This document shows positions 12,971 through 55,563 of a DNA stretch of 64,000 nucleotides, one piece after another; position 1 is the stretch's first letter, and the number at the start of each line of letters is the position of its first letter. Below the pieces are notes generated by a model. The model ran no database searches, was not told the DNA's origin, and was given only the letters and a program-made list of their open reading frames with translations. Source of the DNA: an uncultured virus (IMG/VR IMGVR_UViG_3300032038_000013) (taxonomy: Duplodnaviria > Heunggongvirae > Uroviricota > Caudoviricetes); IMG/VR virus record IMGVR_UViG_3300032038_000013, one strand, 5' to 3'. The position numbers and the translations under genes were made by a program.

Positions 12971-13309
12971 ATGAAAGATTTAGTTGAAATTGTAAATGAA
13001 AATAGAGTAGGCCCTATTAAAAAACTTGATATGTTAACAATTATGGTTGCATATCAAATGTGGAAGGAATATAAGCTTTATGATGAGTTCTTTGGAAAGT
13101 TAGATAAAGAAGAACTTGAAGATTATAATGATTTAAATAAAAGATTAGAACAACTTGATAATGATAATTCAAGAGTTCAATGGTCATTACTTAAAAAATA
13201 TTTTAATATAATCTCAAAAACTTGTGATTATATATTAAATAGTCCTGATGATGAATTTTCAAAATCAGATAAAAAAATTTGGACAGGAATTAAAAGATAC
13301 GTATCATGA
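12971..13309 (+). CDS. Putative capsid-targeted internal protein
   Basis: Start reassigned to MKDLVEIVNE at 12971. Confidence 0.65.
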   Translation: MKDLVEIVNENRVGPIKKLDMLTIMVAYQMWKEYKLYDEFFGKLDKEELEDYNDLNKRLEQLDNDNSRVQWSLLKKYFNIISKTCDYILNSPDDEFSKSDKKIWTGIKRYVS

Positions 13310-13773
13310 AACATATAACAGATTGGATTAACGAAAATAAAGGCGAGATAAAACATTATGTTGATGGAATATTGGTATCTGATGATGAAAAGATATTGAT
13401 ATTACGTCGAGCTAACTATATGAAAAACTTTGGTGGACAATGGGGATTCGTAGGTGGCTCAGTTGACAAAAAAGATAAGAACAATAAAGAAGCAATAATT
13501 CGAGAAATTGAAGAAGAAACAAAAATCAAGTTAACTTTCAATGAACAACAAAAAATGAAAGCTATTGATAAACAAGAGCATGAAAATAATGGTTCAGTTG
13601 TTTCTGATACAGAATATTGGTTAATCAAATTAGAATCAAATCCTGATGTAAAGATTTCTCGAGAACATTCAAAATATGAATGGATAGATGCAGATACATT
13701 TAAGAACAAAACATTTAAGTTTATGCCTGATGTATTTCATTATATACAAAAGTATTTTAACGGAGACTTGTAA
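13306..13773 (+). CDS. Nudix hydrolase with capsid-targeting-like leader
   Basis: WGFVGGSVD...EAIIREIEEETKI Nudix box; ISREHSKYEW; leader MKHITDWINE. Confidence 0.85.
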   Translation: MKHITDWINENKGEIKHYVDGILVSDDEKILILRRANYMKNFGGQWGFVGGSVDKKDKNNKEAIIREIEEETKIKLTFNEQQKMKAIDKQEHENNGSVVSDTEYWLIKLESNPDVKISREHSKYEWIDADTFKNKTFKFMPDVFHYIQKYFNGDL

Positions 13774-24629: not shown

Positions 24630-24755
24630 GCTGAATAAACGAAGGTAGTGAACCAATTGGAGATCCTGAAGAATAAAATAATTAAGGAGGAACGTATGTT
24701 CCTCTTTATTAATTTTAAATAATTTCATATAATATTTAAATTTTTATTTTCTTTA

Positions 24756-24772
24756 CTATATTATATTTGTAA
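24756..24772 (+). promoter_or_regulatory. Promoter motif CTATATTATATTTGTAA containing the Bacteroidota -7 element TAnnTTTG
   Basis: Also found at 39713 and 45429, each at the start of a transcription unit. Confidence 0.7.
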
Positions 24773-24788
24773 TTAAAATAAATGAACA

Positions 24789-28472: not shown

Positions 28473-31400
28473 ATGGCTGATAAAACATTAATGTCAAGTA
28501 TAGCAGAAAATGTTAGCAAAATTGAAAAATCACACAGTAAATTTGGAACTAAACTCCCAGGTAATGCTAATAAAGAAAAAGAAATGACTCTTAAAGAATT
28601 ATCATATGAACAAATGATAATGGGTACTCTTGCATCTTTAACTTGGGGTGTTAAGAATATTGACAAAGATACACAAATCAAGACTTTATTAGGTAAACAA
28701 AATATATTTGGATTAATAAAAGATATTAATTCAAAACTTGAAAGTGAAAAAACAATATTTACTGAATTAAAGAAATATTCAAAAGCAAACGCAACAATAT
28801 TACAATATTTTTATGATAATTTACCAAAGACAATTACAGATAGTGCTGCTGCTATTATTGATGCAATTGGTAAATCTAAAAAGAATAAAGAATCATTAAA
28901 AGACAGTACAACAAAGATTTTAATTGATTTGAAAGCAGCAGATACAATTGAACAAATTCTTAAAGACTTTGATGCATTAGAAGGTGTCGTTATTTTTGAT
29001 AACGACAATGTTAATCGTGTACAAGATTTGCTTGATAGATTAGATAAATTAAGTAAAGAAAATATTTATCTTGTTATTGATACAAACTTATATGATACTG
29101 TAAAGGAACTTAAAGAATTAAAAATTGATATATATGATCCTAAGTGTTTAGATTCTATTAAGGCTGAAATTGATAGTTTAAATAATCAAAAGATAGAAAT
29201 ATTTGATACTGATAATATTGATAAAGCCCGTAATTTATTTGAACAACTTAAAAAAATTAAATTTGAAGAAGGTGCTGAAAATGCATTAACTGGTCTTAGA
29301 AGTTTTTTATCTGCAATTGAAGAAAGTAAAGGATTAGAAAATGTTTCTAAAGATTCAGATACATTAAAGAAACTTACTGAATTTTTTGAAGGTGGTGGTA
29401 AAGAAAAAGGATCTATTACTGAATTAATTAATGCTATTGATAATATACAAGTTAAATTAGATAACGAAAAATTTGATGCATTAAGTAAAGCATTTTCAAT
29501 AGTTGAAATTGCATCTAAATTAATGGAAGGTCATGATGTTAAAATTAATAAAAGATTTTTCAAAGATTTAAATAGTGTATTAACTGAAGAAAGTTATATT
29601 AAAGGATTAATTAATCACTTAAATGATTTAGCTATTGATGTTAAAAAGAATGTTAGAGATAACATACAAACTGTTGATGATTTTATAACAACAGTTTCAA
29701 ATTTAGGTAATCTTGGTTTTATTAAATTAATTAAAGCTAAAATTGCAATTAAAGCTATTAATGCATTTTTAGTTAAAGATATTAAGTCATTAATTGATAA
29801 TGTTTCAGAATATAAAACAGTTAAAGAAGATACTGACAAAACATTTGAAGCATTAGATCATTTATTTGACTCAATTGTTAAATTAGGAGATATTACAATT
29901 TCAGATAAAAGAAAAATGGCAAAGAATATTATATTCATTGATAAATTTTTATCTGAAGATATAAAGAACATAATAGAAAAATCAATTCCTAGTTTAGATA
30001 AGAATCAAAAGGAAGGTTTTGAAGTACTTGAAAAAACAAAGGGTATAATAGATTCATTAATTGATATTGCTGACATTGACCAAACAAAAATGGAATGGGC
30101 AGCAGATAAAATGGAAAGTGTTAAAGATTTTATTACTAATGATGTTAATGAATTACTTGAGTTTATTGTTGAAAATTTAGGTCCTAAAAAAGAACTTAAA
30201 AAAATTATTGAAGTAACTGATTTAACAAGAGAAATCTTTGAAAACATTGAAGATATGAATGATTCAATACCAAGTGTTATGTCTTTATTAAAATCAAATA
30301 CTAAGGTTGTATTATTAGCAACTGAATTTGCATTTATTGAAGAATCATTCAAGACATTATCAAAGATTTCAAAAATATTAACAAACAAAGATAAACAATT
30401 TTTATCGAAAAGATTTGATGGCACATTAGATTCAATTATTGAAATTAATGGAGTATTAGCTTCTATTAATACAAAGCAAGGTATTAAAGATATACTTGCC
30501 TTAGATAGTGAACTTGCTTACATGTATTGGTGCATGGACTTTATGAAAGAAATTGCTGAGTCATATACAAAAGTTTTAAAGTTCAATGAATTTAAGAAGA
30601 CAATACAAAACATTAAATCAGTTATTGATAGCATAGAAATATCGAAAGAAGATTATAAGAAACTTGGAGCTTTAACAGCATTATTGAATACTATGTATAC
30701 ATTAGGTCAATATGCAAGTGATAAGACAACATTCGATATGGAAAAATTTGATGAAGCAACTGAAGCTATTCTTACAGGTGCTATACCATTTATTTCTGAA
30801 TTTGTTAAAGACAGTGAATTAGATAAGAACTTACAAAACTTAATGTCAGTTAATGACAAGATGTTAGATAAGTTCGACCAAATCATAAAGCTTATTGAAA
30901 AGTTTGATAAATTAAGTAAGATAGCTGTTTTATCAAAGATAAGCAATATTGGGTTAAAAGGAATAGTACAAGAAGCAGAATATATTAAAGTAATTATTGG
31001 TAAGTTTGGTGATATTGATAACAAAGAAATCAAAAAAGCAGAAAAATCATTAAACTTATTCAAAAAACTTGTTATTATGAGTGCTGCCATTTTATTAGCA
31101 GGTGCTTTAATAATGAAGTTTATAAAGATACAAGATTTACTTGCATTTACTGGAACTTTAGCTATATTCTTATTTGCAGTAACTGGAGTATTTAGATTAG
31201 TTGCAAAATCACTTAAACCTGCAATGGAAGGCGCAAGAGGAGCAGTATTATTAATAGCTGCTTCTGCACTTGTTATGCTTGCTGGTAGTCTTATAATGAA
31301 TTATGTTGATTTTGGTAATTTGTTGTTATTTACAACATCATTATCAATATTCTTATTTGCAATTACAGGTATATTCAGATTATTCAGCAAAGGATTTGAA

Positions 31401-34400
31401 CAAGCATTAGATGGTGCAAAAGATGCAATGTTGATTGTTGCAGCATCAGCATTAATAATGTTAGTTGGCTCAAGATTAGTTAAGCCTGAAGATTTCTTAG
31501 CATCATTATTATTTGCGGTTGAACTTGGTGTATTCTTAGCAGCAATTGGTTTAGCATTCAAACTTTGGGAAGCATTCGATTCTAAAGCAATAATGGCATC
31601 TGCTGAAGATGTATGCTTGATTATTGGAGTATCTGCTCTTGCTTTAATACTTGGTGGATTAGTAACAAAATATGTAGGTATTGCGGACTTATTGTTATTT
31701 ACAATTGAACTTACATTATTGATAGCAGGCACTATTGGAATATTCATGGCTGCATCAAAGTTTACACCAGGTGCTTTAGAAAGTGCAAGAGATATTGCAA
31801 TATTAATTGGTGTTTCAGGATTAGTATTGATATTAGCAGGGCTTCTTGCTAATCATATTAAGTTTGACTGGCTTGCATTATTTGTATTAGAATTAGCAGT
31901 ATTAATTGGTGGTGTTCTTGCATTATATGCAGTTGTTAGTATGATCCCAGTACAAAAGTATTTACAAATGGGTTGGGAATTATCATTACTTGTTGCAGCA
32001 TCAGGATTAATATTGATATTAGCAGGTCTTGTTGTTAAATATATAGACCTTGGTAGTTTATTCTTATTTACACTTATATTAGGTGCATTTATTGGAGGCA
32101 TATTACTTATATATTCAATTGCAAGTAAAGGATTTAAGAATGCATTCAAAGGTGCAAAAGAAATGGTTATCTTAATTGCAGCTTCAGCATTAATATTAAT
32201 ACTTGGTGCATTAGCAGTTCAAAAGTGGATTGATATTCCATCATTAATCGTATTTACTTTATTATTAGCAGGATTTATATTTGCAATAACATATACTTAT
32301 GGTGTATTTGGTAAACAGATTAAGAAGTCAATTGTACCAGCTATAGCATTAGCATTATTGACTGCTATTTCAGGTTTAGTATTAATCATGGGCGGTAAGT
32401 ATATATTAGATAATCCAGGATTATTAGGAGCTGTTATTGAATTTGCTGGTATACTTATTGTTTATACTGCTCTTATGGGTGGTGTATGTTTCTTACTTGG
32501 AAAATTCATGGCAAAGATTGTCATGGGTATTGTAGCTATGGGATTATTACTTATTGTTACATCATTTGCAACATCAGTAATTGACAAGATAACTACTGTT
32601 GCATCACAAGAAGGATTCTTAAAGAATATATTAAAAGGTATTATTGCGATTGCTGGAGTAATAACTGCTATAGGTGGTATTGCATTTGCAGCTGGTGCAT
32701 TAGTTATGGGTCCACAAGCATTATTATTCTTTGCAGGTGTTGGAGTCATGGCTACAATTGCAGGTCTTGCTTTATTGGCATCACAAGCAGTAAAGAATAT
32801 TGCAGATGCAATGATTCATATGAAAGAGGTTGAGAAATTCGACCCAAGTATAATGATAGATAATATCAAAGGATTTATTACTATAGCTAAAGAAATGGAA
32901 CCTATTGCAGAATCATTCTCAATGATTATGAAAGCATCAATTGCAATTCAAATGATGAGTTCTGCATTAAGTTCAGTAGCAAAGACTTTGAAAGACTGGG
33001 CGGATTTGAAGATCCCAGTATATAAAGGAACAGAAATTGTTGGATATGAAACAATAACAGGTGATATGTTCCCTAAAGCAGCAGAAAATATTAAAGCTGT
33101 TGTAACAACATTAGGTCAAGCAATTATAGATGTATATAATGAAAAGCCTGAAATGTTTGATGGTCCTTTATTTGGTTTACTTGATACTCCATTTATCAAA
33201 GTAACAAAAGGATTAAAGACAATGGGTCCTATGCTTACATCTGTTGCTACTGCTATTAAGGATTGGGCTGAATTAAAAATACCAGTATATAAAGGAACAG
33301 AAGTTGTTGGTTATGAAACAATAACTGGTGATATGTTCCCTAAAGCTGCTGATAATATAAAGCAAGTTGTTACAACATTAGGACAAGCAATTATTGATAT
33401 ATATAATGAAAAGCCTGAAATGTTTGATGGTCCTTTATTTGGTTTACTTGATACTCCATTTGTAAAGGTTACTAAAGCATTAAAGACAATGGGTCCTATG
33501 TTAGCATCAATTGCAAAAGGTGTTAAAGAATGGGCAGACTTCAAGATTCCTGTTTATGAAGGAACAGAAATTGTTGGTTATGATACAATAACAGCAGGTA
33601 CTATGACAACTGCAGCTAAGAATATCAAATCTGTTATAAAGACTTTAGGTGAAGCAATTATTGAAACATATGATGAATGTGAAAAGAATGAAAAGACACA
33701 AGGTATGTTTGACCCTCAAGGTTTCTTAGGATTTGGTAAATCTAAATTTGCAAGAGTAACTCAAGCATTTAAGACAATGGGTCCTATGCTTAGTTCAATT
33801 GCTGATGGAATTATAAAATGGGCAGAACTTAAAATACCAGTTTATAAAGGAACTGAAATTGTAGAATATAAAACAATTAAAGATGCAGAATTTGACCATG
33901 CTGCACAAAATATTAAAAAGGTACTTAAATGTATTGGTGAAGCATTAGTTGAAGTTGTAGAAAAGAATCCAAAATTATTTGGAGATGATATATTTACAGA
34001 TGGCCCAGCTATTGTTGCTGCAAAGGCAATGAAGTTAATGGGTGAAACATTGAATTTAACTGCAACTGCGGTTTCTTCATATGCATCAGGTGTATTTCCA
34101 TTATTTGACAAAGATGGCAAATATGTTAAAGATATAGTTGTTAAAGATGCAGATTATGATAAAGCAGCAACAGCAATTAATAAAGTATTAGTATGTATTG
34201 GTAATGCTCTTAAAGATGTTGTTGAAAATAATGATATATTTAATGATGGATTATTTAGTGATGCTCCAGCAATTAAAGCAGCAGAAGCTATTAAGGGAAT
34301 GTCTGAAGCATTAAATAATTCTGTTACTGCAATATCTAAACTTGCTGAACTTGATTTGAATGAACTTCATACAGCATTAGATCCTAATGGTCCAGAAGAT

Positions 34401-35795
34401 AATATATATCATAGATTAAATGACTTATTAACATTTACAGTTGAGATATATAGATTATTTGTATCTGAAGATAGTTCAATGGCTACAACTGGTAAAGTAA
34501 GCCATTGGTGGAGATCTGATACTGTTGAAAAGATGAGTTTTGCAGAATATCTTGATGAACATAATGGAGATGTTGAAGATGCAAACGATGCATTAGGAAC
34601 ATTTACTGGTATGTTATCGAAGATGCTTGATAAATATGTAGATATTGGCAAGATTATAAATGATAATAAAGATGCATTAAAAGTATTTGAAGGTGGTTAT
34701 AATTCAGATATTTATAGATATTTAAATGATTCAATGTCATCAATAACATCAATGATTAGATTATTGATTGCTGAAGATAAGTTAGATTTATTTGAAGAAA
34801 TTGAAGATAATGAAGACGATATCATTGATGGTATTAAGTCAACCACAAATATTTGTAAGACAATGCTTGATGGTGTATTGGATATAAAGAAATTATTTGA
34901 TGAAATTTCTGGATTCAATATGTTATTAATGGTGCCAATGATTACATCATTTGATGCATGTGTACAAGCATTATCAAAGATTGGAAAACAGGGTGAGGAA
35001 GCAGTAGGTTCAATTAAGTTATCATTACCTACTATTGATGCTTCAATGTTAAGTGCTCAAATTGCAATGTATTCAGCAGCTTTAGATATGATTATTAAAG
35101 TTAATGAACATGCAAAAGAAGCAGGAGAAGAAGGTTATAATGTATTAAGAGATGGTATATTAAAGATATATGCTGCTACTCAACAAATTGAAGATAACGA
35201 AATATTCAAACAACATGTTAAGCAGTTAGAAGATTATGTTGAAGCAATTAATTCTATTAAGTTAAATCATTTAGGTGGTCTTAAAGGATTAGTAGATTCA
35301 ATGAATGAATTAAGTCAACGTCTTGGTAATCTTGATAATTTGACAGATGCAATTGGAAATAAATTATCTCAAGTATTATATGAACTTGTTCTTCAATTAA
35401 GAAAGGCAGAAGCAACAATCCATAATGCTCATGAATTACAAGAAAAACGTAAGAGATTAATGGATGAATCAATTGAAAAGATTCATAACATAATGGATCA
35501 TCATATGATTGTTGAAATTAGTCAACAGAAGGAAGAAGATACATCAAGTAATCCTACAGGTACAATTGGTGGCAACCCAGTAGATGATGGAGCACCACAA
35601 GGTACAGATACAACACCTCCTACATCAACTACACCTAAGGCTAACCCAGAAGAAACAACTGCTGCTCAAGGTACAGGTAATAGTAGAGTTGTAAATCAAC
35701 CTGATGCTGCACAATTGAAAGATGTATTGACATTCGGTAAGTTCAAAGATTACATGGAGAAACAATATCTTAATAAGATAAGAAATAGCGGATAA
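28473..35795 (+). CDS. Tape-measure-like protein (2440 aa)
   Basis: Very long and helical, central multi-TM repeat block, about 80-aa C-terminal repeats; next to a tail-tube-like gene. Confidence 0.7.
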   Translation: MADKTLMSSIAENVSKIEKSHSKFGTKLPGNANKEKEMTLKELSYEQMIMGTLASLTWGVKNIDKDTQIKTLLGKQNIFGLIKDINSKLESEKTIFTELKKYSKANATILQYFYDNLPKTITDSAAAIIDAIGKSKKNKESLKDSTTKILIDLKAADTIEQILKDFDALEGVVIFDNDNVNRVQDLLDRLDKLSKENIYLVIDTNLYDTVKELKELKIDIYDPKCLDSIKAEIDSLNNQKIEIFDTDNIDKARNLFEQLKKIKFEEGAENALTGLRSFLSAIEESKGLENVSKDSDTLKKLTEFFEGGGKEKGSITELINAIDNIQVKLDNEKFDALSKAFSIVEIASKLMEGHDVKINKRFFKDLNSVLTEESYIKGLINHLNDLAIDVKKNVRDNIQTVDDFITTVSNLGNLGFIKLIKAKIAIKAINAFLVKDIKSLIDNVSEYKTVKEDTDKTFEALDHLFDSIVKLGDITISDKRKMAKNIIFIDKFLSEDIKNIIEKSIPSLDKNQKEGFEVLEKTKGIIDSLIDIADIDQTKMEWAADKMESVKDFITNDVNELLEFIVENLGPKKELKKIIEVTDLTREIFENIEDMNDSIPSVMSLLKSNTKVVLLATEFAFIEESFKTLSKISKILTNKDKQFLSKRFDGTLDSIIEINGVLASINTKQGIKDILALDSELAYMYWCMDFMKEIAESYTKVLKFNEFKKTIQNIKSVIDSIEISKEDYKKLGALTALLNTMYTLGQYASDKTTFDMEKFDEATEAILTGAIPFISEFVKDSELDKNLQNLMSVNDKMLDKFDQIIKLIEKFDKLSKIAVLSKISNIGLKGIVQEAEYIKVIIGKFGDIDNKEIKKAEKSLNLFKKLVIMSAAILLAGALIMKFIKIQDLLAFTGTLAIFLFAVTGVFRLVAKSLKPAMEGARGAVLLIAASALVMLAGSLIMNYVDFGNLLLFTTSLSIFLFAITGIFRLFSKGFEQALDGAKDAMLIVAASALIMLVGSRLVKPEDFLASLLFAVELGVFLAAIGLAFKLWEAFDSKAIMASAEDVCLIIGVSALALILGGLVTKYVGIADLLLFTIELTLLIAGTIGIFMAASKFTPGALESARDIAILIGVSGLVLILAGLLANHIKFDWLALFVLELAVLIGGVLALYAVVSMIPVQKYLQMGWELSLLVAASGLILILAGLVVKYIDLGSLFLFTLILGAFIGGILLIYSIASKGFKNAFKGAKEMVILIAASALILILGALAVQKWIDIPSLIVFTLLLAGFIFAITYTYGVFGKQIKKSIVPAIALALLTAISGLVLIMGGKYILDNPGLLGAVIEFAGILIVYTALMGGVCFLLGKFMAKIVMGIVAMGLLLIVTSFATSVIDKITTVASQEGFLKNILKGIIAIAGVITAIGGIAFAAGALVMGPQALLFFAGVGVMATIAGLALLASQAVKNIADAMIHMKEVEKFDPSIMIDNIKGFITIAKEMEPIAESFSMIMKASIAIQMMSSALSSVAKTLKDWADLKIPVYKGTEIVGYETITGDMFPKAAENIKAVVTTLGQAIIDVYNEKPEMFDGPLFGLLDTPFIKVTKGLKTMGPMLTSVATAIKDWAELKIPVYKGTEVVGYETITGDMFPKAADNIKQVVTTLGQAIIDIYNEKPEMFDGPLFGLLDTPFVKVTKALKTMGPMLASIAKGVKEWADFKIPVYEGTEIVGYDTITAGTMTTAAKNIKSVIKTLGEAIIETYDECEKNEKTQGMFDPQGFLGFGKSKFARVTQAFKTMGPMLSSIADGIIKWAELKIPVYKGTEIVEYKTIKDAEFDHAAQNIKKVLKCIGEALVEVVEKNPKLFGDDIFTDGPAIVAAKAMKLMGETLNLTATAVSSYASGVFPLFDKDGKYVKDIVVKDADYDKAATAINKVLVCIGNALKDVVENNDIFNDGLFSDAPAIKAAEAIKGMSEALNNSVTAISKLAELDLNELHTALDPNGPEDNIYHRLNDLLTFTVEIYRLFVSEDSSMATTGKVSHWWRSDTVEKMSFAEYLDEHNGDVEDANDALGTFTGMLSKMLDKYVDIGKIINDNKDALKVFEGGYNSDIYRYLNDSMSSITSMIRLLIAEDKLDLFEEIEDNEDDIIDGIKSTTNICKTMLDGVLDIKKLFDEISGFNMLLMVPMITSFDACVQALSKIGKQGEEAVGSIKLSLPTIDASMLSAQIAMYSAALDMIIKVNEHAKEAGEEGYNVLRDGILKIYAATQQIEDNEIFKQHVKQLEDYVEAINSIKLNHLGGLKGLVDSMNELSQRLGNLDNLTDAIGNKLSQVLYELVLQLRKAEATIHNAHELQEKRKRLMDESIEKIHNIMDHHMIVEISQQKEEDTSSNPTGTIGGNPVDDGAPQGTDTTPPTSTTPKANPEETTAAQGTGNSRVVNQPDAAQLKDVLTFGKFKDYMEKQYLNKIRNSG

Positions 35796-39712: not shown

Positions 39713-39729
39713 CTATTTTATATTTGTAA
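39713..39729 (+). promoter_or_regulatory. Promoter motif CTATTTTATATTTGTAA
   Basis: Recurrent motif; preceded by an inverted repeat at about 39666-39709. Confidence 0.7.
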
Positions 39730-40320
39730 TAAAAATCAAATGAATATGAGAAATAAAAAACGTCCCCAGTACATTGAGAAGCAGTTGAGTGAGATTAACG
39801 ATATTCTTCGTTCAATAAGATTAAAGTTTGATGACAAATATAATAATGATTTGTTTTGCTGGTTTACCACATATCTTCTTCACAATGGCTGGTATCGTGG
39901 TTTTAATATGCATTATGATAAAGAAGTTACATATTCAGATGGAACCACAAAAGTTATAAGAGCTCTTGCTGGTCCTGATTATGAAACAAAAGATTATTAT
40001 ATTCAGATTTGGTAATTATGCAATATATTTCCCAATATGGTAATTATATGACTATAGAAGATAGTTATGTTAAAAGAATAATTACTTCACCGTTTCATCA
40101 ATTTATTTTGATATTACAAGACGGAAATAGAATTTATACAAATAAAATTAAAGCTTAATGGGATTATTTCAAAAAACATATACTCCAGAGCAATGGGAAA
40201 AATATAAAAAGGATAATCCTGAATTATTTGACCCCAATCATCCTGATTATGTTTTAGATGATGGTCCAACGGTGTATGAGGAAAACAAAGAATATTTTGA
40301 TAATTTATTTATAAAATAAT

Positions 40321-41470: not shown

Positions 41471-42787
41471 ATGATAGAGTTAATAGGAAAATATACAAAA
41501 GCAATTATATACGCAGAGACAATTGAAGAGGGTGTCTACGGGCAGGTATATGATATTATAAATTGTCCAGCATTTGAAGGACAGAAGGTAGTTTGTATGC
41601 CTGATGTTCATGTTGGAAAGTCAGGTCCTTGTGGACTTGTTGCAACAATCGGAGACTATATTTGTCCTGAGCATATTGGTGTTGATATTGGATGTACAGT
41701 ATCAATGATGCTATTGGATAAGAAAGTTCCTGTTGAAAAGTACGCCGAGTTTGAACGTCGTATCAAGAATAAGATTCCTTTTGGATTCAATATCAATGGT
41801 AAGACAATTATTGATGAAAAGGATTTTAGAAAGTTCTTGACAAAGGGATTTAATCGTTATGCTCAAAAGTGGCCTGAGATGTTGTCTGATTTACCTGACC
41901 AAGTAACTGAGAAGTGGATTACAGAACAGCTTAAGAGACTTAATGTTGATGAGGGTGTTTTCTATAAGTCACTTGGGTCAGTTGGTGGAGGTAACCACTT
42001 CATTGAATATAATGAACAAGCAGATGGTGATCTTGCTGGTTTAACTTGTCATTTCGGTTCAAGAAACTTTGGAACAAAGGTTTGTAATTATTGGATGAAG
42101 AAGACAGTTCAGCCAATGTCAAAGAACGAAATGAAGGAGAAGCTTGAGCAGTTCAAGAAGGATTATCAGAAGGCTGAAAAGTCAATGAAGGAATATAAGA
42201 AGGCTCAGGATGAATATGTTGAAAGCATTCGTCGTAATCATATTAATGGTTATCTTTCTGGAGAGTATATGAAGGAGTATTTGATGGATATGTGTTTCTG
42301 TCAATTGTATGCTCAGTATAATCATATTACTGTTCAGAATGTTATTAAGGATTTACTTCAGAAGTATGGAATTAAGGAGGTAAGAACAATTACTTCAACT
42401 CATAATTTCATTGACCTTGAGGATCACTGTTTGAGAAAGTCAGCAATTCGTTCTTATAAGGGAGAAGAGATTCTTGTTCCATTCAATATGAGAGATGGAG
42501 TTGCAATCTGTGAGGGGCTTTCAAATTCAGATTGGCTAAATTCTTGTGCGCATGGTGCTGGCCGAAAGATGTCACGTTCTAAGGCAAAGCAGAATATTTC
42601 CATGAAGGATTTTGAAAAGACTATGGAGGGTATTTATTCAACTACAGTTTGTAAGGCAACACTTGATGAGTCACCAATGGCTTACAAGGACACAACTGAG
42701 ATTAAGGACTTGATTACTGAAACATGTAAGATTAAGTTCATGATGATACCTAAGATTAACATTAAGGCAGCAGATGGTGGAGATTAG
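41471..42787 (+). CDS. rtcB: RtcB RNA ligase
   Basis: MPDVH, GVDIGC, GGGNHFIE, HFGSR, HNF, HGAGR, DESPMAYK. Confidence 0.95.
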   Translation: MIELIGKYTKAIIYAETIEEGVYGQVYDIINCPAFEGQKVVCMPDVHVGKSGPCGLVATIGDYICPEHIGVDIGCTVSMMLLDKKVPVEKYAEFERRIKNKIPFGFNINGKTIIDEKDFRKFLTKGFNRYAQKWPEMLSDLPDQVTEKWITEQLKRLNVDEGVFYKSLGSVGGGNHFIEYNEQADGDLAGLTCHFGSRNFGTKVCNYWMKKTVQPMSKNEMKEKLEQFKKDYQKAEKSMKEYKKAQDEYVESIRRNHINGYLSGEYMKEYLMDMCFCQLYAQYNHITVQNVIKDLLQKYGIKEVRTITSTHNFIDLEDHCLRKSAIRSYKGEEILVPFNMRDGVAICEGLSNSDWLNSCAHGAGRKMSRSKAKQNISMKDFEKTMEGIYSTTVCKATLDESPMAYKDTTEIKDLITETCKIKFMMIPKINIKAADGGD

Positions 42788-44875: not shown

Positions 44876-45097
44876 TACTATATTAATAAATAAATATATC
44901 TTAACAAATTATGATAGTTTGGCCAGTATATGTATATTTAGCAATCCAATTGTTTGGATTAGGAGTTTCAATTGCAAAACATGGTGAATATGTAAAAGTT
45001 AATTTTTGGTCAATTATATTATCGTCAGCTTTTACATGGTTCTTACTTTACAAAGGTGGCTTCTTTGATGTATTGATTAAATAAATTATAATATATT

Positions 45098-45367
45098 ATG
45101 AAAAGTGGAAGTAAATTAATTTCAGAAGAACGCTCACGTCAAATTACAAAAGAAGGTTGGTCTGCTGAACATGACAAAGAACATGATGTAATGGAATTTG
45201 TTAGAGCAGCACAAGCATATTTAATGATTGATAAAGACAATATTACTCGTGCAGGCGTGTGGCCATGGACAGGTGGATTTTTTAAACCAAAAGATGCAAT
45301 AAAAGATTTGACAAGAGCAGGTGCATTAATTGCAGCAGCAATTGATAGATTACAAATGGATGAGTAA
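45098..45367 (+). CDS. Conserved phage protein (ER.RQI..EGW..EHD / WPW...FKP / AGALIAA.IDR type)
   Basis: Motifs of a widespread phage family; function not known to me. Confidence 0.75.
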   Translation: MKSGSKLISEERSRQITKEGWSAEHDKEHDVMEFVRAAQAYLMIDKDNITRAGVWPWTGGFFKPKDAIKDLTRAGALIAAAIDRLQMDE

Positions 45368-45428
45368 ATTTGAATATAATAAGTTTTATAAATTCAACTT
45401 ATGAATTTTGAATATTATATAAAAATTA

Positions 45429-45445
45429 CTATATTATATTTGTAA
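45429..45445 (+). promoter_or_regulatory. Promoter motif 4 nt upstream of the tRNA-like RNA
   Basis: CTATATTATATTTGTAA, identical to 24756. Confidence 0.7.
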
Positions 45446-45449
45446 CGAT

Positions 45450-45567
45450 GGAGTAGTGGCGCAATGGTAGACGCACGGAGGCATCCGATTCGCGGTTCGA
45501 GTCCGCAAGTAAGTAGGCATACTGAAACAAAGGAAAAGAATGAGGTGTTCGATTCCCTCCTACTCCA
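45450..45567 (+). ncRNA. tRNA-like RNA with two T-arms and no canonical anticodon arm
   Basis: Acceptor GGAGTAG/CTACTCC plus A; D-arm GCGCAATGGTAGACGC; T-loops TTCGAGT and TTCGATT. Confidence 0.75.
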
Positions 45568-46422
45568 CAAATTATTGATAAGATGAAATATAATATTATT
45601 TTCAAAGGTGCATCATATAAAAATAGATGTATTGAAGTTTATCTTCCGGAATATAAGCATTCACAATTTATATTGAAACATCCAGTAGGATCAAAATATC
45701 TTTTTGGATTTACTTCTGATGAATTTTGGAGATCACATCCTGATTTAGAAAAAGAAGTACGAAAAATATGTTTCGATATTGCATTTAAACACCTTAGTTT
45801 TGTTGTAGGCTGGGATTTTAGAGAAGAACATAATGATTATAATTGGTGGAGTTATGCTGTTAAAGAATGGAAAGATGAAGGTTATATTACTGTAACTGAT
45901 GAACAATTTAATATTGCTTTGAAATCTTTTTATAATAAATATGTAAGAGAAAAAGGTAAACGTGTTTTTAAATTTATAGAACAATGAATTATAATGGTTT
46001 AACTTTCACAATAGTTTTTGTAACTTGTATTGTTATTGCACTTATACAATGTTATCAATGTGAGAAACGACATGCAATTGAATATAATGCAAAAAGACCT
46101 GAAAATATTTTAGTTGAATTACGAGCTTATAAAGATACTTATGGAATTACAGATAAAAATTTTACTGATGATTTACCTTATCATTTAGAATATAAAACTA
46201 AAGATGATAAATATTGGAAACCAATCAGAATGTTTCAAGATTTAATTCCTGGAACAAATAAGTATTCAGTATCACAAATTGTAATTAAAGATAAAAAAGA
46301 TTTAGAAAATTGGAAGCAAAAATTTAAAACATTACAAGATGTAAATGATTTCAAAAAAACACAAGACGAATTAATGAAGTTGTGGGAAGAAAAAGAAACA
46401 GATAAAAATTGTATATATTAAT

Positions 46423-47082
46423 ATGAAATATCCAAGAACATATCATTTACCATATTCACCTGGGGCTACTAAAGATGACAAGAAGCTCCAGGATGATTGG
46501 TTTAAATACTATCAAGGAAAAGAAATAGTAATAACTGAAAAACTTGATGGTGAAAATATTCATATGAATCAAAAGGACTGTTATGCAAGATCTGATGGTG
46601 CTCCTACACGTTCTCCATGGTCAAGAAATATATGGGATCCTAATGATGGCTTATATTGGAGAATCAAATCTTTAATTGGTTCTAATGAAACATTATTTGG
46701 AGAAAACTTATATGGTGAACATTCAATTCATTATGATAAATTACCTTCATATTTTCATTTATTTGCAGTTAGTACAGAATCTGTATGGGAAAGCTGGCAA
46801 TCTGTTAAATTGTTCGGTGCTATTCTTGGGGTAAAAACTGTACCTGAATTATGGAGAGGTGTTGTTGCTGATGAAAATAGTTTAAAGACATTAGTAGATT
46901 TTTATACAAAAGAACCATCAATATATGGAGATACTCGTGAAGGTGTTGTTATACGAGTAACGAGTTCATTTCCTCTTGATGATTTCAAACATTATGTTTG
47001 TAAATGGGTTAGACCTAATCATGTTCAAACAGATGAACATTGGACAAAGAATTGGAAACGTGCTGAATTGAATTATGAATGA
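46423..47082 (+). CDS. ATP-dependent RNA ligase family protein
   Basis: KYPRTYHLP.SPG, TEKLDGEN (KxDG), FGENLY, EGVVIR, KWVR. Confidence 0.85.
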   Translation: MKYPRTYHLPYSPGATKDDKKLQDDWFKYYQGKEIVITEKLDGENIHMNQKDCYARSDGAPTRSPWSRNIWDPNDGLYWRIKSLIGSNETLFGENLYGEHSIHYDKLPSYFHLFAVSTESVWESWQSVKLFGAILGVKTVPELWRGVVADENSLKTLVDFYTKEPSIYGDTREGVVIRVTSSFPLDDFKHYVCKWVRPNHVQTDEHWTKNWKRAELNYE

Positions 47083-50528: not shown

Positions 50529-50987
50529 ATGGAAAATAATTGGATTTATATAGGTATATTTCTTGATGATAAATCAAAAAAACTATTAAAGAAATTATAT
50601 CCGCTACCTAAATGGTGGAAAGAATATTATGATCATATGACAGTTGTATTTAATGATAATACAAAATTAGCAAATGACATAAAATTGATTAATGAGCATA
50701 ATATTGGTAAAAAATTCAAACTTAAACTTGTAGGACCTGGTATATCTGATAAAGCATATGCAGTACAAGTTGAACTTCCAAAAGGTCTTGTTTGTGCAAA
50801 TAAAATTACTCATATTACAATGGGTGTTGCTCCTATAGATGGTGCAAATCCAGTAGATAGTAATTATATAACAAATTGGTCAAAAGTTTATGATAATGTA
50901 TATTTAACTGGTGAAATGAAAGTATATGTTCCATTAACAAATGGAGTTTTAATGAATACAAAAGTTGATGAAGCAAATATTTATTGA
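50529..50987 (+). CDS. 2H phosphoesterase (cyclic phosphodiesterase)
   Basis: Two HxT motifs: DHMTVV and THITMG. Confidence 0.75.
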   Translation: MENNWIYIGIFLDDKSKKLLKKLYPLPKWWKEYYDHMTVVFNDNTKLANDIKLINEHNIGKKFKLKLVGPGISDKAYAVQVELPKGLVCANKITHITMGVAPIDGANPVDSNYITNWSKVYDNVYLTGEMKVYVPLTNGVLMNTKVDEANIY

Positions 50988-55035: not shown

Positions 55036-55563
55036 ATGAAAATAACAGATGAATACGTCTTTTTCTATAAAGACTGGTTAAGCAATTATCAAAAAACAAA
55101 TTTTACTGTTGAATGGAAAGGTACAACATATACATTCTCATCAACAGAAAAAGGTTTTATGTATATTAAAGCAATAACATTTGGAGATTCAGTTACTGCT
55201 TCAAAAATTATGAAGACTGATGACCCAAATCAATGTCGTAAACTTGGTCGTCAAGTAAAAGGATATAAAGATAGTGAATGGGAAAAAATTCGCTATGATG
55301 TATTCTATACTTTGAACTGGGCTAAATATACTCAAGACAAAGAACTTCAAAAGAAATTATTAGATCCTAAATTTGATGGTAAGAAATTTGTTGAAGCATC
55401 TCCTATTGACAAAATATGGGGTATAGGATATGCAGAAAATAATCCAAATATTGAATATGCTCAAATATATTGGGGAAAGAATTATCTTGGTCGTATTTTG
55501 ACAAATATTCGTAAAAGATTAAAAGCCGCAAATGGTTCTGATGATTGGAACATATATTCATAA
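55036..55563 (+). CDS. NADAR family protein
   Basis: E..FM..KA..FGD, KLGRQVK, VEASP.D.IWGIG, WGKNYLG..L. Confidence 0.9.
   Translation: MKITDEYVFFYKDWLSNYQKTNFTVEWKGTTYTFSSTEKGFMYIKAITFGDSVTASKIMKTDDPNQCRKLGRQVKGYKDSEWEKIRYDVFYTLNWAKYTQDKELQKKLLDPKFDGKKFVEASPIDKIWGIGYAENNPNIEYAQIYWGKNYLGRILTNIRKRLKAANGSDDWNIYS

What the first reader, a model, noticed from the sequence alone, without database searches (positions are those of the whole stretch)
45429..45570. tRNA mimic with two T-arms, two GGCA hairpins, no anticodon arm and its own promoter motif
Seen, in order: perfect 7-bp acceptor stem (GGAGTAG/CTACTCC); Leu-like D-arm; hairpin CGGA-GGCA-TCCG; T-arm GCGG-TTCGAGT-CCGC; second hairpin AGTA-GGCA-TACT; A-rich linker; second T-arm GAGGTG-TTCGATT-CCCTC; 3' ACAA (no encoded CCA). 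The two GGCA-capped stems differ in sequence yet both pair, which argues for selection on structure rather than decay. The recurrent promoter motif ends 4 nt upstream. It lies between rtcB and an RNA ligase gene. Inference: a non-decoding tRNA mimic, such as a decoy for tRNA-targeting nucleases, a Y-RNA-like molecule, or a substrate of the repair enzymes.
Basis: partly seen in the sequence, partly recalled or inferred. Interest (0 to 1): 0.78.

Follow-up and report, generated by a model that had tools for sequence, protein, structure and literature searches.

The report
Phage tRNA look-alike with two T-arms
A giant phage from the cattle gut carries a conserved, tRNA-shaped small RNA gene that cannot read codons; it belongs to a widespread, so far unnamed family of phage RNAs whose job is untested but probably lies in the fight between phages and bacteria over tRNAs.

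Summary
Window 45450-45567 (+) encodes a 118-nt tRNA-like RNA: 7-bp acceptor stem, D-arm, a 4-bp hairpin with a GGCA loop where the anticodon arm should be, a full extra T-arm, a second GGCA hairpin, a GG-containing linker, a second T-arm and discriminator A. ARAGORN and Rfam do not call it. It is not a one-off. I collected 62 distinct relatives from phage and metagenome contigs, with 20 different acceptor stems. On a 64-sequence alignment all six helices covary: 98.4% of cells paired against 70.9% in shuffles, and 22 of 27 pairs show compensatory changes. The frame resembles a long-variable-arm tRNA-Leu. The hairpin 1 loop is 4 nt in all 62, so the RNA cannot decode. Most relatives sit inside phage tRNA arrays. 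Only the rumen clade, this window included, places it between RtcB and an RNA ligase. RNA-library contigs cover it, and one ends exactly at the discriminator. Some phages carry up to nine copies of the same frame with unrelated inner parts. Function is untested. My best guess is a tRNA-processed, stable tRNA-body mimic that binds a tRNA-recognising protein, either a host nuclease (as a decoy) or a repair enzyme. The main rival is a pure RNA-processing signal. I found no published description.

The parts
45408..45435 (+). sigma-70-like promoter candidate, TTGAAT-16 nt-TATATT
   Evidence: 9 of 12 matches; such sites are common in this AT-rich region, 19 found against 10.6 expected. The hexamers are kept in L002/L003. 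Function not shown.
45426..45446 (+). recurrent 21-nt motif TTACTATATTATATTTGTAAC, ending 4 nt before the RNA
   Evidence: 2 matches with at most 3 mismatches (24753, 45426), 0.02 expected. Looser third copy at 39714. In RNA-run assemblies this stretch joins to other loci (loose ends at 45436/45445), so it is repeated in related phages.
45450..45456 (+). acceptor stem, 5' strand (GGAGTAG)
   Evidence: All 7 pairs show changes on both sides across 64 sequences, 99.1% paired.
45457..45474 (+). U8-G9 and D-arm (3-bp stem, loop AATGGTAGA with GG), of tRNA-Leu type
   Evidence: helix 2, 100% paired. Similar to the D-arm of T4 tRNA-Leu.
45476..45487 (+). hairpin 1, CGGA-GGCA-TCCG, in the position of the anticodon arm but with a 4-nt loop
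   Evidence: Rfam's tRNA model aligns this stem of a relative as the anticodon stem. Loop is GGCA in 58 of 62. 3 of 4 pairs covary.
45492..45506 (+). T-arm 1, GCGG-TTCGAGT-CCGC (extra, internal T-arm)
   Evidence: helix 4, 100% paired; the 2 outer pairs covary. The T-loop sequence was demanded by my search patterns.
45507..45526 (+). hairpin 2, AGTA-GGCA-TACT, flanked by AAGTA and GAA
   Evidence: 4 of 4 pairs covary. GTA precedes it in 58 of 62 and GAA follows in 60 of 62. The likeness of AGUA/GAA to a bulged-G (sarcin-ricin/loop E) motif is recalled, not tested.
45527..45541 (+). rest of the A-rich linker with conserved GG (45532-45533); in most relatives a small GTA-TGG-TAC hairpin in the place of a variable arm
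   Evidence: GG present in 62 of 62.
45542..45559 (+). T-arm 2, GAGG(T)G-TTCGATT-CCCTC, contiguous with the acceptor 3' strand
   Evidence: helix 6, 99.4% paired, 3 of 5 pairs covary.
45560..45567 (+). acceptor stem 3' strand (CTACTCC) and discriminator A
   Evidence: A in 60 of 61. An RNA-library contig (X1, 651 nt) ends exactly at 45567.
45568..45570 (+). trailer CAA (no encoded CCA)
   Evidence: First trailer base is C in 59 of 61 relatives; CCA is encoded in 7 of 61.
41471..42787 (+). RtcB RNA ligase gene (context)
   Evidence: Pfam PF01139, E = 1.2e-55.
46423..47082 (+). ATP-dependent RNA ligase gene, PF09414 (context)
   Evidence: E = 3.4e-22.
45583..45987 (+). 134-aa ORF whose ATG lies 16 nt after the discriminator (context: its mRNA 5' end could be set by cleavage at the RNA)
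   Evidence: 80% identical in L006/L007. No Pfam family.

Best explanation
This is the gene of a roughly 118-nt, non-decoding tRNA-like RNA. It belongs to a widespread, unannotated family of phage RNAs built on the frame of a long-variable-arm tRNA of tRNA-Leu type.

Shown: the frame (7-bp acceptor stem, U8, D-arm with GG, T-arm 2, A73, usually C74) is conserved and covaries. The anticodon arm is replaced by a closed hairpin with a 4-nt loop. The variable region carries a second complete T-arm and a second capped hairpin.

Inferred: the frame makes the transcript a substrate of the host's tRNA-processing enzymes (RNase P at 45450, a 3' cut after A45567, then CCA addition). The RNA would therefore accumulate as a stable, tRNA-shaped small RNA, and its excision would also set the 5' end of the downstream mRNA. 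Because it has no anticodon loop it cannot work in decoding. I propose that it acts as a ligand: a tRNA-body mimic with two T-loops, and so possibly two elbows. It would occupy a protein that recognises tRNA shape during infection, most likely a host tRNA-cleaving defence nuclease that it resists (decoy/inhibitor), or else the phage's own repair or processing enzymes.

The identity as a selected, non-decoding tRNA-like RNA family I hold at about 0.9. The ligand/decoy mechanism I hold at about 0.4; that is the confidence given.
For: Anatomy read directly.

Not a tRNA to the detectors: ARAGORN finds 0 genes in the window and never calls the element in 15 related loci. Rfam gives no hit at the gathering score, nor at E <= 10 over 45300-45700.

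Family: 3 exact 27-mer hits. 20 matches of 46-107 bits among 100 of the 112 viral pattern loci searched. 72 of 90 metagenome pattern loci at 42.5 bits or more. 1 of 120 genome-collection loci. In all, 62 distinct parsed sequences with 20 different acceptor strands.

Structure: 98.4% of 1679 cells paired against 70.9% in shuffles; 22 of 27 pairs changed on both sides; covariation score 0.716 against 0.199; slid controls at most 0.105. RNAalifold independently finds the acceptor stem, hairpin 1, T-arm 1, hairpin 2 and T-arm 2.

No decoding: the hairpin 1 loop is 4 nt in 62 of 62, and GGCA in 58 of 62 although no scan demanded it.

tRNA-like ends: A73 in 60 of 61; CCA encoded in 7 of 61. The Rfam tRNA model passes its threshold on three relatives by treating hairpin 1 as the anticodon stem and the rest as a 52-nt insert.

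Context points to tRNA biology in both settings. 13 of 15 viral loci have tRNA genes within 3 kb on the same strand, up to 16. The rumen clade places the RNA between RtcB and an RNA ligase even where the genes between them differ; in L279 RtcB ends 100 nt upstream.

Expression hint: contigs of 3 of 4 RNA libraries cover it. In X1, a contig of depth 43.7 ends exactly at the discriminator and the next starts at 45590 with depth 10.2.
Against: No binding partner, target or phenotype is known; the mechanism is inference from shape and neighbourhood.

No protein family other than homing endonucleases recurs beside the RNA across clades.

The RtcB link is confined to one acceptor clade, and 0 of 5 other phage RtcB loci hold the RNA.

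The RNA evidence consists of assembled contigs from RNA libraries. They may contain DNA and cannot prove ends or abundance. A size-fractionated RNA library (X19) showed no cover over the element.

The single-sequence folding energy is unremarkable (z = -1.0).

The T-loops and the hairpin 2 loop look invariant partly because my search patterns demanded them; a scan that left hairpin 2 free found other loops.

The alignment used for the pair counts was fitted to the model.

The frame paralogs with arbitrary inner parts suggest that the frame alone may be what matters.
Confidence: 0.4

Rival explanations
1. A pure RNA-processing signal (t-element-like punctuation). The tRNA frame recruits RNase P and a 3' endonuclease to cut the polycistronic transcript, setting the 3' end of the upstream message and the 5' end of the downstream one. 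The excised RNA itself has no further role.
For: The downstream ORF starts 16 nt after the discriminator. In the frame-paralog arrays 11 of 33 units have an ATG at +15 or +16, and the inner parts differ completely while the frame is kept. The X1 RNA contig ends at the discriminator, and depth differs on the two sides.
Against: This does not explain why the inner module (hairpin 1, T-arm 1, hairpin 2, GG linker) is kept with compensatory changes across 62 sequences and 20 acceptor types. It also does not explain why the RNA sits inside arrays of tRNA genes, which are already processing sites.
Confidence: 0.2
2. A cofactor or scaffold of the phage RNA-repair enzymes (RtcB, RNA ligase, phosphoesterase), analogous to what has been proposed for YrlA with Ro60/RtcB and for the band-7-associated tRNA.
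For: RtcB...RNA...ligase synteny is kept in the window, L001, L002, L253, L317 and L250, and RtcB ends 100 nt upstream in L279. A metallophosphoesterase gene follows the RNA in L276. The window also holds a tRNA_lig_CPD-like ORF at 50529-50987. The literature proposes tRNA-like partners for RtcB operons (passages of bioRxiv 10.1101/312249).
Against: RtcB and ligase neighbours occur only in the GGAGTAG acceptor clade, so this may be inherited synteny. Most family members lie in tRNA arrays without such genes in the 1.5-3 kb examined. 0 of 5 other phage RtcB loci carry the RNA.
Confidence: 0.12
3. An aminoacylated, non-ribosomal tRNA-like RNA. Leucyl-tRNA synthetase, which in E. coli does not read the anticodon (recalled), would charge the Leu-type frame. 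The product would either sequester the synthetase or EF-Tu, or donate leucine to a transferase.
For: Leu-type D-arm and A73. CCA encoded in 7 of 61 and C74 in 59 of 61. ARAGORN names frame paralogs Leu or Tyr.
Against: No charging data. In half the family the D-arm departs from the Leu type (GGTAAATGGTAAAGC). Acceptor stems vary freely. G3:U70 occurs in 10 of 64, so there is no single identity set. No transferase gene was seen nearby.
Confidence: 0.08
4. A precursor of a working tRNA that needs removal of an intervening sequence, with RtcB sealing the exons.
For: RtcB is the tRNA-splicing ligase of archaea and animals. The RNA is about 40 nt longer than a tRNA.
Against: No removal of a contiguous segment that I tried by eye yields a 5-bp stem with a 7-nt loop. 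No joint across the element appears in 4 RNA runs (table 5). The putative 'intron' contains a conserved, covarying T-arm. Most members have no RtcB nearby.
Confidence: 0.03
5. A decaying tRNA pseudogene or a recombination scar between two tRNA genes.
For: Phage tRNA arrays are full of homing endonucleases and rearrangements. The frame paralogs show that inner parts are easily replaced.
Against: 62 distinct sequences keep the same six helices through compensatory changes. The element is nearly invariant while its flanks diverge.
Confidence: 0.02

Closest known systems
Long-variable-arm (type II) tRNA, tRNA-Leu type; compared here with phage T4 tRNA-Leu
   Same: 7-bp acceptor stem, U8, D-arm sequence and 3-bp D-stem, T-arm, A73 (alignment A8). 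T4 tRNA-Leu is the best T4 match of the model (16 bits). The Rfam tRNA model passes on three relatives.
   Different: 4-nt loop instead of a 7-nt anticodon loop. An extra T-arm and an extra capped hairpin in the variable region. About 118 nt. ARAGORN never calls it, and the window copy fails Rfam.
YrlA, bacterial Y RNA with a tRNA-like domain (Rfam RF02553; PMC4201824 seen as search listing and abstract; bioRxiv 10.1101/312249 passages read)
   Same: A non-decoding tRNA mimic, in some genomes encoded near rtcB.
   Different: In YrlA the 5' and 3' ends form the Ro60-binding stem (recalled); here they form the acceptor stem. No YrlA hit in the window. One partial 28.3-bit match against a gathering score of 69 overlaps a relative. 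No TROVE protein among the 45 window ORFs scanned.
[quoted passage not shown]
   Same: A predicted tRNA-like RNA encoded beside RtcB.
   Different: It is described as strongly resembling an authentic tRNA and as linked to a Band-7 protein. No Band-7 domain was found among the ORFs scanned here.
Phage T4 stable RNAs rnaC (species 1, 139 nt) and rnaD (species 2, 119 nt)
   Same: Unexplained stable non-tRNA RNAs encoded at the end of a phage tRNA cluster. rnaD is the same size, and rnaC ends in a T-arm-like hairpin.
   Different: No sequence or structure match: the model gives no hit on either.
tRNA-like processing signals
   Same: A tRNA-shaped element beside mRNA ends that lacks decoding capacity.
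   Different: Here the inner module is itself conserved and covaries, and most copies lie among tRNA genes rather than between mRNAs.
Engineered 'tRNA scaffold' for expressing recombinant RNAs (recalled; no paper read)
   Same: Acceptor, D and T parts are kept, with a foreign structured RNA in place of the anticodon arm. The frame-paralog arrays look like a natural version.
   Different: This one is natural, and its function is unknown.

Membership tests
Canonical tRNA (Rfam RF00005) | Acceptor stem of 7 bp with a discriminator base | tested here: met
   all 7 pairs covary.
Canonical tRNA (Rfam RF00005) | Anticodon arm: 5-bp stem with a 7-nt loop carrying U33 and an anticodon | tested here: not met
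   The loop is 4 nt in the window and in 62 of 62 parsed relatives. ARAGORN makes 0 calls on it.
Canonical tRNA (Rfam RF00005) | Score at or above the Rfam gathering threshold (29 bits) | tested here: not met
   The window copy has no hit at the gathering score or at E <= 10. Three relatives pass (L108 37.1, L198 35.8, L322 34.7 bits), but only with a 52-nt insert.
Canonical tRNA (Rfam RF00005) | D-arm with GG and a T-arm with a TTCGA-type loop | tested here: met
   the T-arm is present twice.
YrlA / bacterial Y RNA (RF02553) | Match to the family model at the gathering score (69 bits) | tested here: not met
   No hit in the window. One 28.3-bit partial match in L322.
YrlA / bacterial Y RNA (RF02553) | 5' and 3' ends form a Ro60-binding helix; gene next to rsr (TROVE) | tested here: not met
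   The ends form a tRNA acceptor stem. No TROVE domain in the 45 window ORFs scanned. The definition of the feature is recalled.
[quoted passage not shown] | Encoded next to a Band-7/SPFH protein and RtcB | tested here: not met
   RtcB is 2.66 kb away. No Band-7 domain among the ORFs scanned.
[quoted passage not shown] | Sequence or structure likeness to the published b7a-tRNA | not testable with these tools
   The paper is not held, and no sequence was available.
tmRNA (RF00023 and relatives) | tRNA-like domain plus an internal tag reading frame; G3:U70 | tested here: not met
   ARAGORN finds no tmRNA. No Rfam hit in the window. A3:U70 in the window. G:U at 3:70 in only 10 of 64.
T4 rnaC / rnaD | Homology to the T4 stable RNAs | tested here: not met
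   Model R1 finds neither in the T4 tRNA region.
   The window copy scores 154.1 bits with R1 (built from it and 3 close relatives, so met by construction) and 120.9 bits with R2.

The most novel reading that the evidence does not exclude
Phages use a tRNA-Leu frame as a natural RNA scaffold. The acceptor, D and T parts guarantee excision, CCA ends and stability, and the place of the anticodon arm displays interchangeable structured modules (up to nine different ones within 3 kb in some phages). The double-T-arm module in this window is the most widespread cargo. It forms a second tRNA elbow and works as an uncleavable decoy that traps host tRNA-targeting defence nucleases. That would explain why it travels either with phage tRNA arrays or with RtcB/ligase repair genes.
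Probability: 0.2. Interest if true: 0.9.

Novelty: new variant of a known kind. Interest (0 to 1): 0.72.

Why it matters
Phage tRNA genes and RNA-repair enzymes are now read as countermeasures to bacterial defences that cut tRNAs. A conserved, non-decoding tRNA look-alike that travels with both would be a third, RNA-based component of that conflict, and it is easy to test: express it and challenge with known tRNA nucleases.

The family is invisible to ARAGORN. It is missed by Rfam or mislabelled as tRNA, so it is currently unannotated or wrongly annotated in phage genomes.

The arrays of one tRNA frame with many different inner parts suggest that phages invented the 'tRNA scaffold' long before it was engineered. 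This may point to a larger hidden class of phage small RNAs.

Structurally, an RNA with two T-loops and several GG donors inside one acceptor stem is an unusual fold, worth probing or solving.

Tried and rejected
1. GenBank phages: blastn of the window element and of two relatives found nothing, so no cultured phage with a member is known from this collection.

2. Own genome and whole viral contigs are not held. I therefore made no whole-contig tRNA census and no co-occurrence statistics.

3. RtcB relatives in IMG/VR (L004, L005) and GenBank (LoVEphage, LR756501, Bacillus phage Goe7): no model hit within 4-10 kb of RtcB.

4. T4 rnaC/rnaD as relatives: rejected.

5. Long-range pairing of ATTC (45488-45491) with GAAT (45538-45541): it fits the window, but relatives have no complementary bases there. 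Rejected by eye.

6. Alanine identity (G3:U70): 10 of 64 only. Rejected as a family feature.

7. Intron or splicing readings: no plausible exon junction by eye and no joints in the RNA runs.

8. A protein partner by neighbourhood: ORF clustering over 94 family loci gave only homing endonucleases (HNH, GIY-YIG, NUMOD3) across clades.

9. GGCA read as a Gly codon plus A (as in a T-box specifier) or as an anticodon-like GGC plus A37: ideas from recall, not testable here. The loop variants GACA, GGCG and GGTA argue against a strict codon reading.

10. Size-fractionated RNA run X19 showed no cover over 45386-45547. No conclusion is drawn from this.

11. Literature: five full-text searches found no description of a two-T-arm phage tRNA-like RNA. 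In the catalogue of 10,006 viral candidate RNAs (PMC10690425; abstract and passages read), supplementary files 3-6 hold neither a family motif nor the contig names I searched. Files 1-2 could not be searched, so the family may be listed there under a number.

12. The earlier-scan lead on a Cellulophaga phage RNA beside RtcB could not be followed: that phage was not among the 100 RtcB rows listed.
Full report
WHAT IS THERE. Window 45450-45567 (+) reads as the first stage described:
- acceptor GGAGTAG/CTACTCC (7 perfect pairs)
- U8-G9
- a D-arm with a 3-bp stem and a GG loop
- hairpin 1, CGGA-GGCA-TCCG
- T-arm 1, GCGG-TTCGAGT-CCGC
- AAGTA
- hairpin 2, AGTA-GGCA-TACT
- a GAA-led A-rich linker with GG
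- T-arm 2, GAGG(T)G-TTCGATT-CCCTC, with one bulged T
- discriminator A, then CAA

ARAGORN finds no tRNA or tmRNA anywhere in the 64-kb window. Rfam 15 gives nothing at gathering scores for the whole window, and nothing tRNA-like at E <= 10 for 45300-45700. The minimum-energy fold reproduces the hairpins but is not better than shuffles (z = -1.0), so a single-sequence fold proves nothing.

The window is part of a large AT-rich phage genome. Genes seen include collagen-repeat proteins, a glucosaminidase-like enzyme, a 2440-aa ORF, a DNA methylase and a helicase. The RNA-repair genes are RtcB at 41471-42787, a PF09414 RNA ligase at 46423-47082 and a tRNA_lig_CPD-like ORF at 50529-50987.

The 21-nt motif upstream recurs with at most 3 mismatches at 24753 (0.02 expected) and more loosely at 39714. 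A sigma-70-like pair of hexamers overlaps it, but such matches are common here.

IT IS A FAMILY, NOT A ONE-OFF. An exact 27-mer from the element hits three huge viral contigs. There the element is almost invariant while the flanks diverge. The few changes are compensatory: AGTA/TACT becomes GGTA/TACC in hairpin 2, and one pair is swapped in T-arm 2.

A looser pattern (T-loop 1, GGCA, T-loop 2) gave 112 viral stretches. I searched 100 of them with a covariance model built from the four close copies. Twenty scored 46-107 bits over 115-121 nt; the next best (33 bits or less) were ordinary tRNAs.

A metagenome scan gave 90 stretches, 72 of them with a match of 42.5 bits or more.

After removing duplicates and false positives, a script parsed 62 distinct family sequences of 114-121 nt with 20 different acceptor 5' strands. 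GenBank phages hold no blastn match to three different members.

STRUCTURE IS UNDER SELECTION. On 64 sequences aligned to a second model, 98.4% of 1679 pair cells are standard pairs, against 70.9% in 500 shuffles. Of 27 pairs, 22 have changes on both sides. The covariation score is 0.716 against 0.199, and sliding the partners by 1-3 columns gives at most 0.105. Each of the six helices is supported, including the two capped hairpins (3 of 4 and 4 of 4 pairs with double changes) and the internal T-arm.

RNAalifold on the same alignment predicts the acceptor stem, hairpin 1, T-arm 1, hairpin 2 and T-arm 2 by itself: 23 pairs, 18 of them with compensatory changes.

Caveats. The alignment was fitted to the model. 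Related sequences inflate the shuffle statistics. The T-loops, the GGCA of hairpin 2 and partly the GAA after it were demanded by my scan patterns. Hairpin 1's loop was not demanded in the scans that supplied the 62, yet it is GGCA in 58 of 62, the rest being GGCG, GACA and one misparsed case. A further scan that fixed hairpin 1's loop and left hairpin 2 free found members whose hairpin 2 is capped by GGTA, GGCG or CGCAA. GGCA there is therefore common, not universal.

WHAT KIND OF MOLECULE. The frame is that of a long-variable-arm tRNA of Leu type:
- The best match of the model in the T4 tRNA cluster is tRNA-Leu.
- The D-arm and T-arm 2 of several members align closely with T4 tRNA-Leu.
- ARAGORN labels some frame paralogs Leu or Tyr.

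Rfam's tRNA model passes its threshold on three relatives (34.7-37.1 bits). It does so by taking hairpin 1 as the anticodon stem and pushing T-arm 1, hairpin 2 and the linker into a 52-nt insertion in the variable region. So hairpin 1 is the remnant of the anticodon arm with a loop cut to 4 nt, and it is 4 nt in 62 of 62. The molecule cannot decode.

The ends are tRNA-like: A73 in 60 of 61, C at the next position in 59 of 61, and CCA encoded in 7 of 61.

In most members the linker holds a small GTA-TGG-TAC hairpin where a variable arm would be. In the window clade only the GG survives. GG is present in 62 of 62 linkers. Two T-loops together with several GG donors (the D-loop, the linker and the two GGCA caps) make a second tRNA-type elbow plausible. 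This is inference.

The AGUA before hairpin 2 and the GAA after it resemble the bulged-G (sarcin-ricin/loop E) motif. I recall this consensus and did not test it, and one subclade lacks it.

CONTEXT. In 13 of 15 viral loci the RNA lies among tRNA genes on the same strand, up to 16 within 3 kb. It is often first in the array and spaced like a tRNA.

The rumen clade (acceptor GGAGTAG and close kin) is different. It has no tRNA genes nearby, and RtcB and a PF09414 ligase flank the RNA. This holds in the window, L001 and L002. L253 and L317 have the ligase within the stretch held, and L250 has the RtcB C-terminus. In L279 RtcB ends 100 nt upstream while the downstream genes differ. In the sister clade with acceptor GTAGCAG, a metallophosphoesterase gene follows directly.

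Clustering all ORFs of the 94 family loci showed that RtcB and the ligase occur with one acceptor type only. The only proteins recurring across clades are homing endonucleases. Five other phage RtcB loci have no copy. The RtcB link is therefore real within a lineage but is not a property of the family. What the two contexts share is tRNA supply and repair.

EXPRESSION. Runs holding this stretch come from ruminant gut samples. Contigs of 3 of 4 RNA libraries laid on 44900-46500 cover the element. In X1 a 651-nt contig (depth 43.7) spans 44917-45567 and stops exactly at the discriminator with no loose end. The next contig starts at 45590 with depth 10.2. X17 also holds a variant family member. 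Contigs from RNA libraries can contain DNA and cannot prove ends, so this is a weak hint of a 3' cut after A73 and of co-transcription with the upstream ORFs.

A WIDER CLASS. Some freshwater and marine contigs carry tandem units with nearly identical 25-nt 5' and 3' frame halves (same acceptor, D-arm and T-arm) but unrelated inner parts of 28-131 nt. L305 has nine units in 3.06 kb, L243 and L257 five each, and exactly one unit per array is the double-T-arm type. Eleven of 33 units are followed by an ATG at +15 or +16. This shows that the frame is a module that can carry different cargos, and it also feeds the rival view that the frame alone is what matters.

MECHANISM. Shown: a conserved, covarying, non-decoding tRNA-like gene family in phages. 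Inferred: tRNA-type processing into a stable RNA that acts by being bound. I favour a decoy or inhibitor of a tRNA-shape-recognising host nuclease, because the RNA keeps company with tRNA arrays or repair enzymes and has closed loops where such nucleases cut. My confidence is about 0.4. The rivals are:
- a pure processing signal (0.2)
- a repair cofactor (0.12)
- an aminoacylated non-ribosomal RNA (0.08)
- a spliced precursor (0.03)
- a pseudogene (0.02)

COMPARISON AND NOVELTY. It works like the known tRNA mimics but is a member of none tested. It fails the tRNA anticodon-arm criterion, YrlA (score, end topology, no TROVE neighbour), tmRNA, and T4 rnaC/rnaD. The band-7-associated tRNA could not be compared.

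Five literature searches found no description. A catalogue of viral candidate RNAs could be searched only in part.

I did not test it, but it suggests that the kind recurs. I class the finding as a new variant of a known kind (non-decoding tRNA mimics), with a distinctive two-T-arm architecture and a wide distribution.

Noticed in passing
L305 (reverse strand) 6-2810; also L243 545-1574, L257 473-1986, L310, L265, L308, L267: Arrays of up to nine units in 3 kb share nearly identical tRNA-Leu-like frame halves (acceptor AGTCAGG/CCTGACT, D-arm, T-arm) but have unrelated inner parts of 28-131 nt. The units are separated by 45-460 nt that often hold small ORFs whose ATG lies 15-16 nt after the frame.
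   Followed up: partly
L254 1457-1578: A 122-nt relative (52.3 bits with R2) appears to hold two complete D-arms and two T-arms inside one acceptor stem (sequence). This is a different way of doubling the elbow parts.
   Followed up: no
L193, L195, L229, L231 (Bacteroidota genome contigs): A T-arm is followed by GGCA, and then by an acceptor/D-arm-like stretch joined directly to another T-arm with no anticodon arm. It recurs in several Bacteroidota genomes and is not the family studied here.
   Followed up: no
L082 3334-4815 (-): A 493-aa protein with DUF2828 and DUF7788 is encoded about 230 nt upstream of the family RNA, with one tRNA between them. I recall DUF2828 as Ro/TROVE-like; this was not tested. 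The same locus has a CUA-anticodon tRNA that ARAGORN labels Pyl, which suggests amber suppression.
   Followed up: no
L407 1070-1175 (Bacteroides phage LoVEphage OY731433, 57700-57805): The record annotates a '5S ribosomal RNA' (barrnap) in a 430-nt gap 2.8 kb upstream of its RtcB gene. It is probably some other structured RNA. Model R2 does not hit it.
   Followed up: no
window 24753-24773, 39714-39730, 45426-45446: A shared promoter-like motif, TAT(A/T)TTATATTTGTAA, preceded 5-17 nt upstream by an ATAT(A/T)ATAT-rich box. It occurs three times on the + strand. RNA-run assemblies branch at it.
   Followed up: partly
window 50529-50987, 55036-55563 and 13306-13773: Further RNA- or nucleotide-end enzymes in the same phage region: a tRNA_lig_CPD-like 2H phosphoesterase, a NADAR domain protein and a NUDIX hydrolase with a Nudt16-like match.
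   Followed up: no
window 28473-35795: A 2440-aa ORF with no Pfam match at E <= 1e-4.
   Followed up: no
L283 1771-1841; L045 2683-2759; L067 2877-2949: Odd tRNAs in the arrays beside family members: a UUA-anticodon 'stop' suppressor, one with a 4-base anticodon and one with a 2-base anticodon, according to ARAGORN.
   Followed up: no
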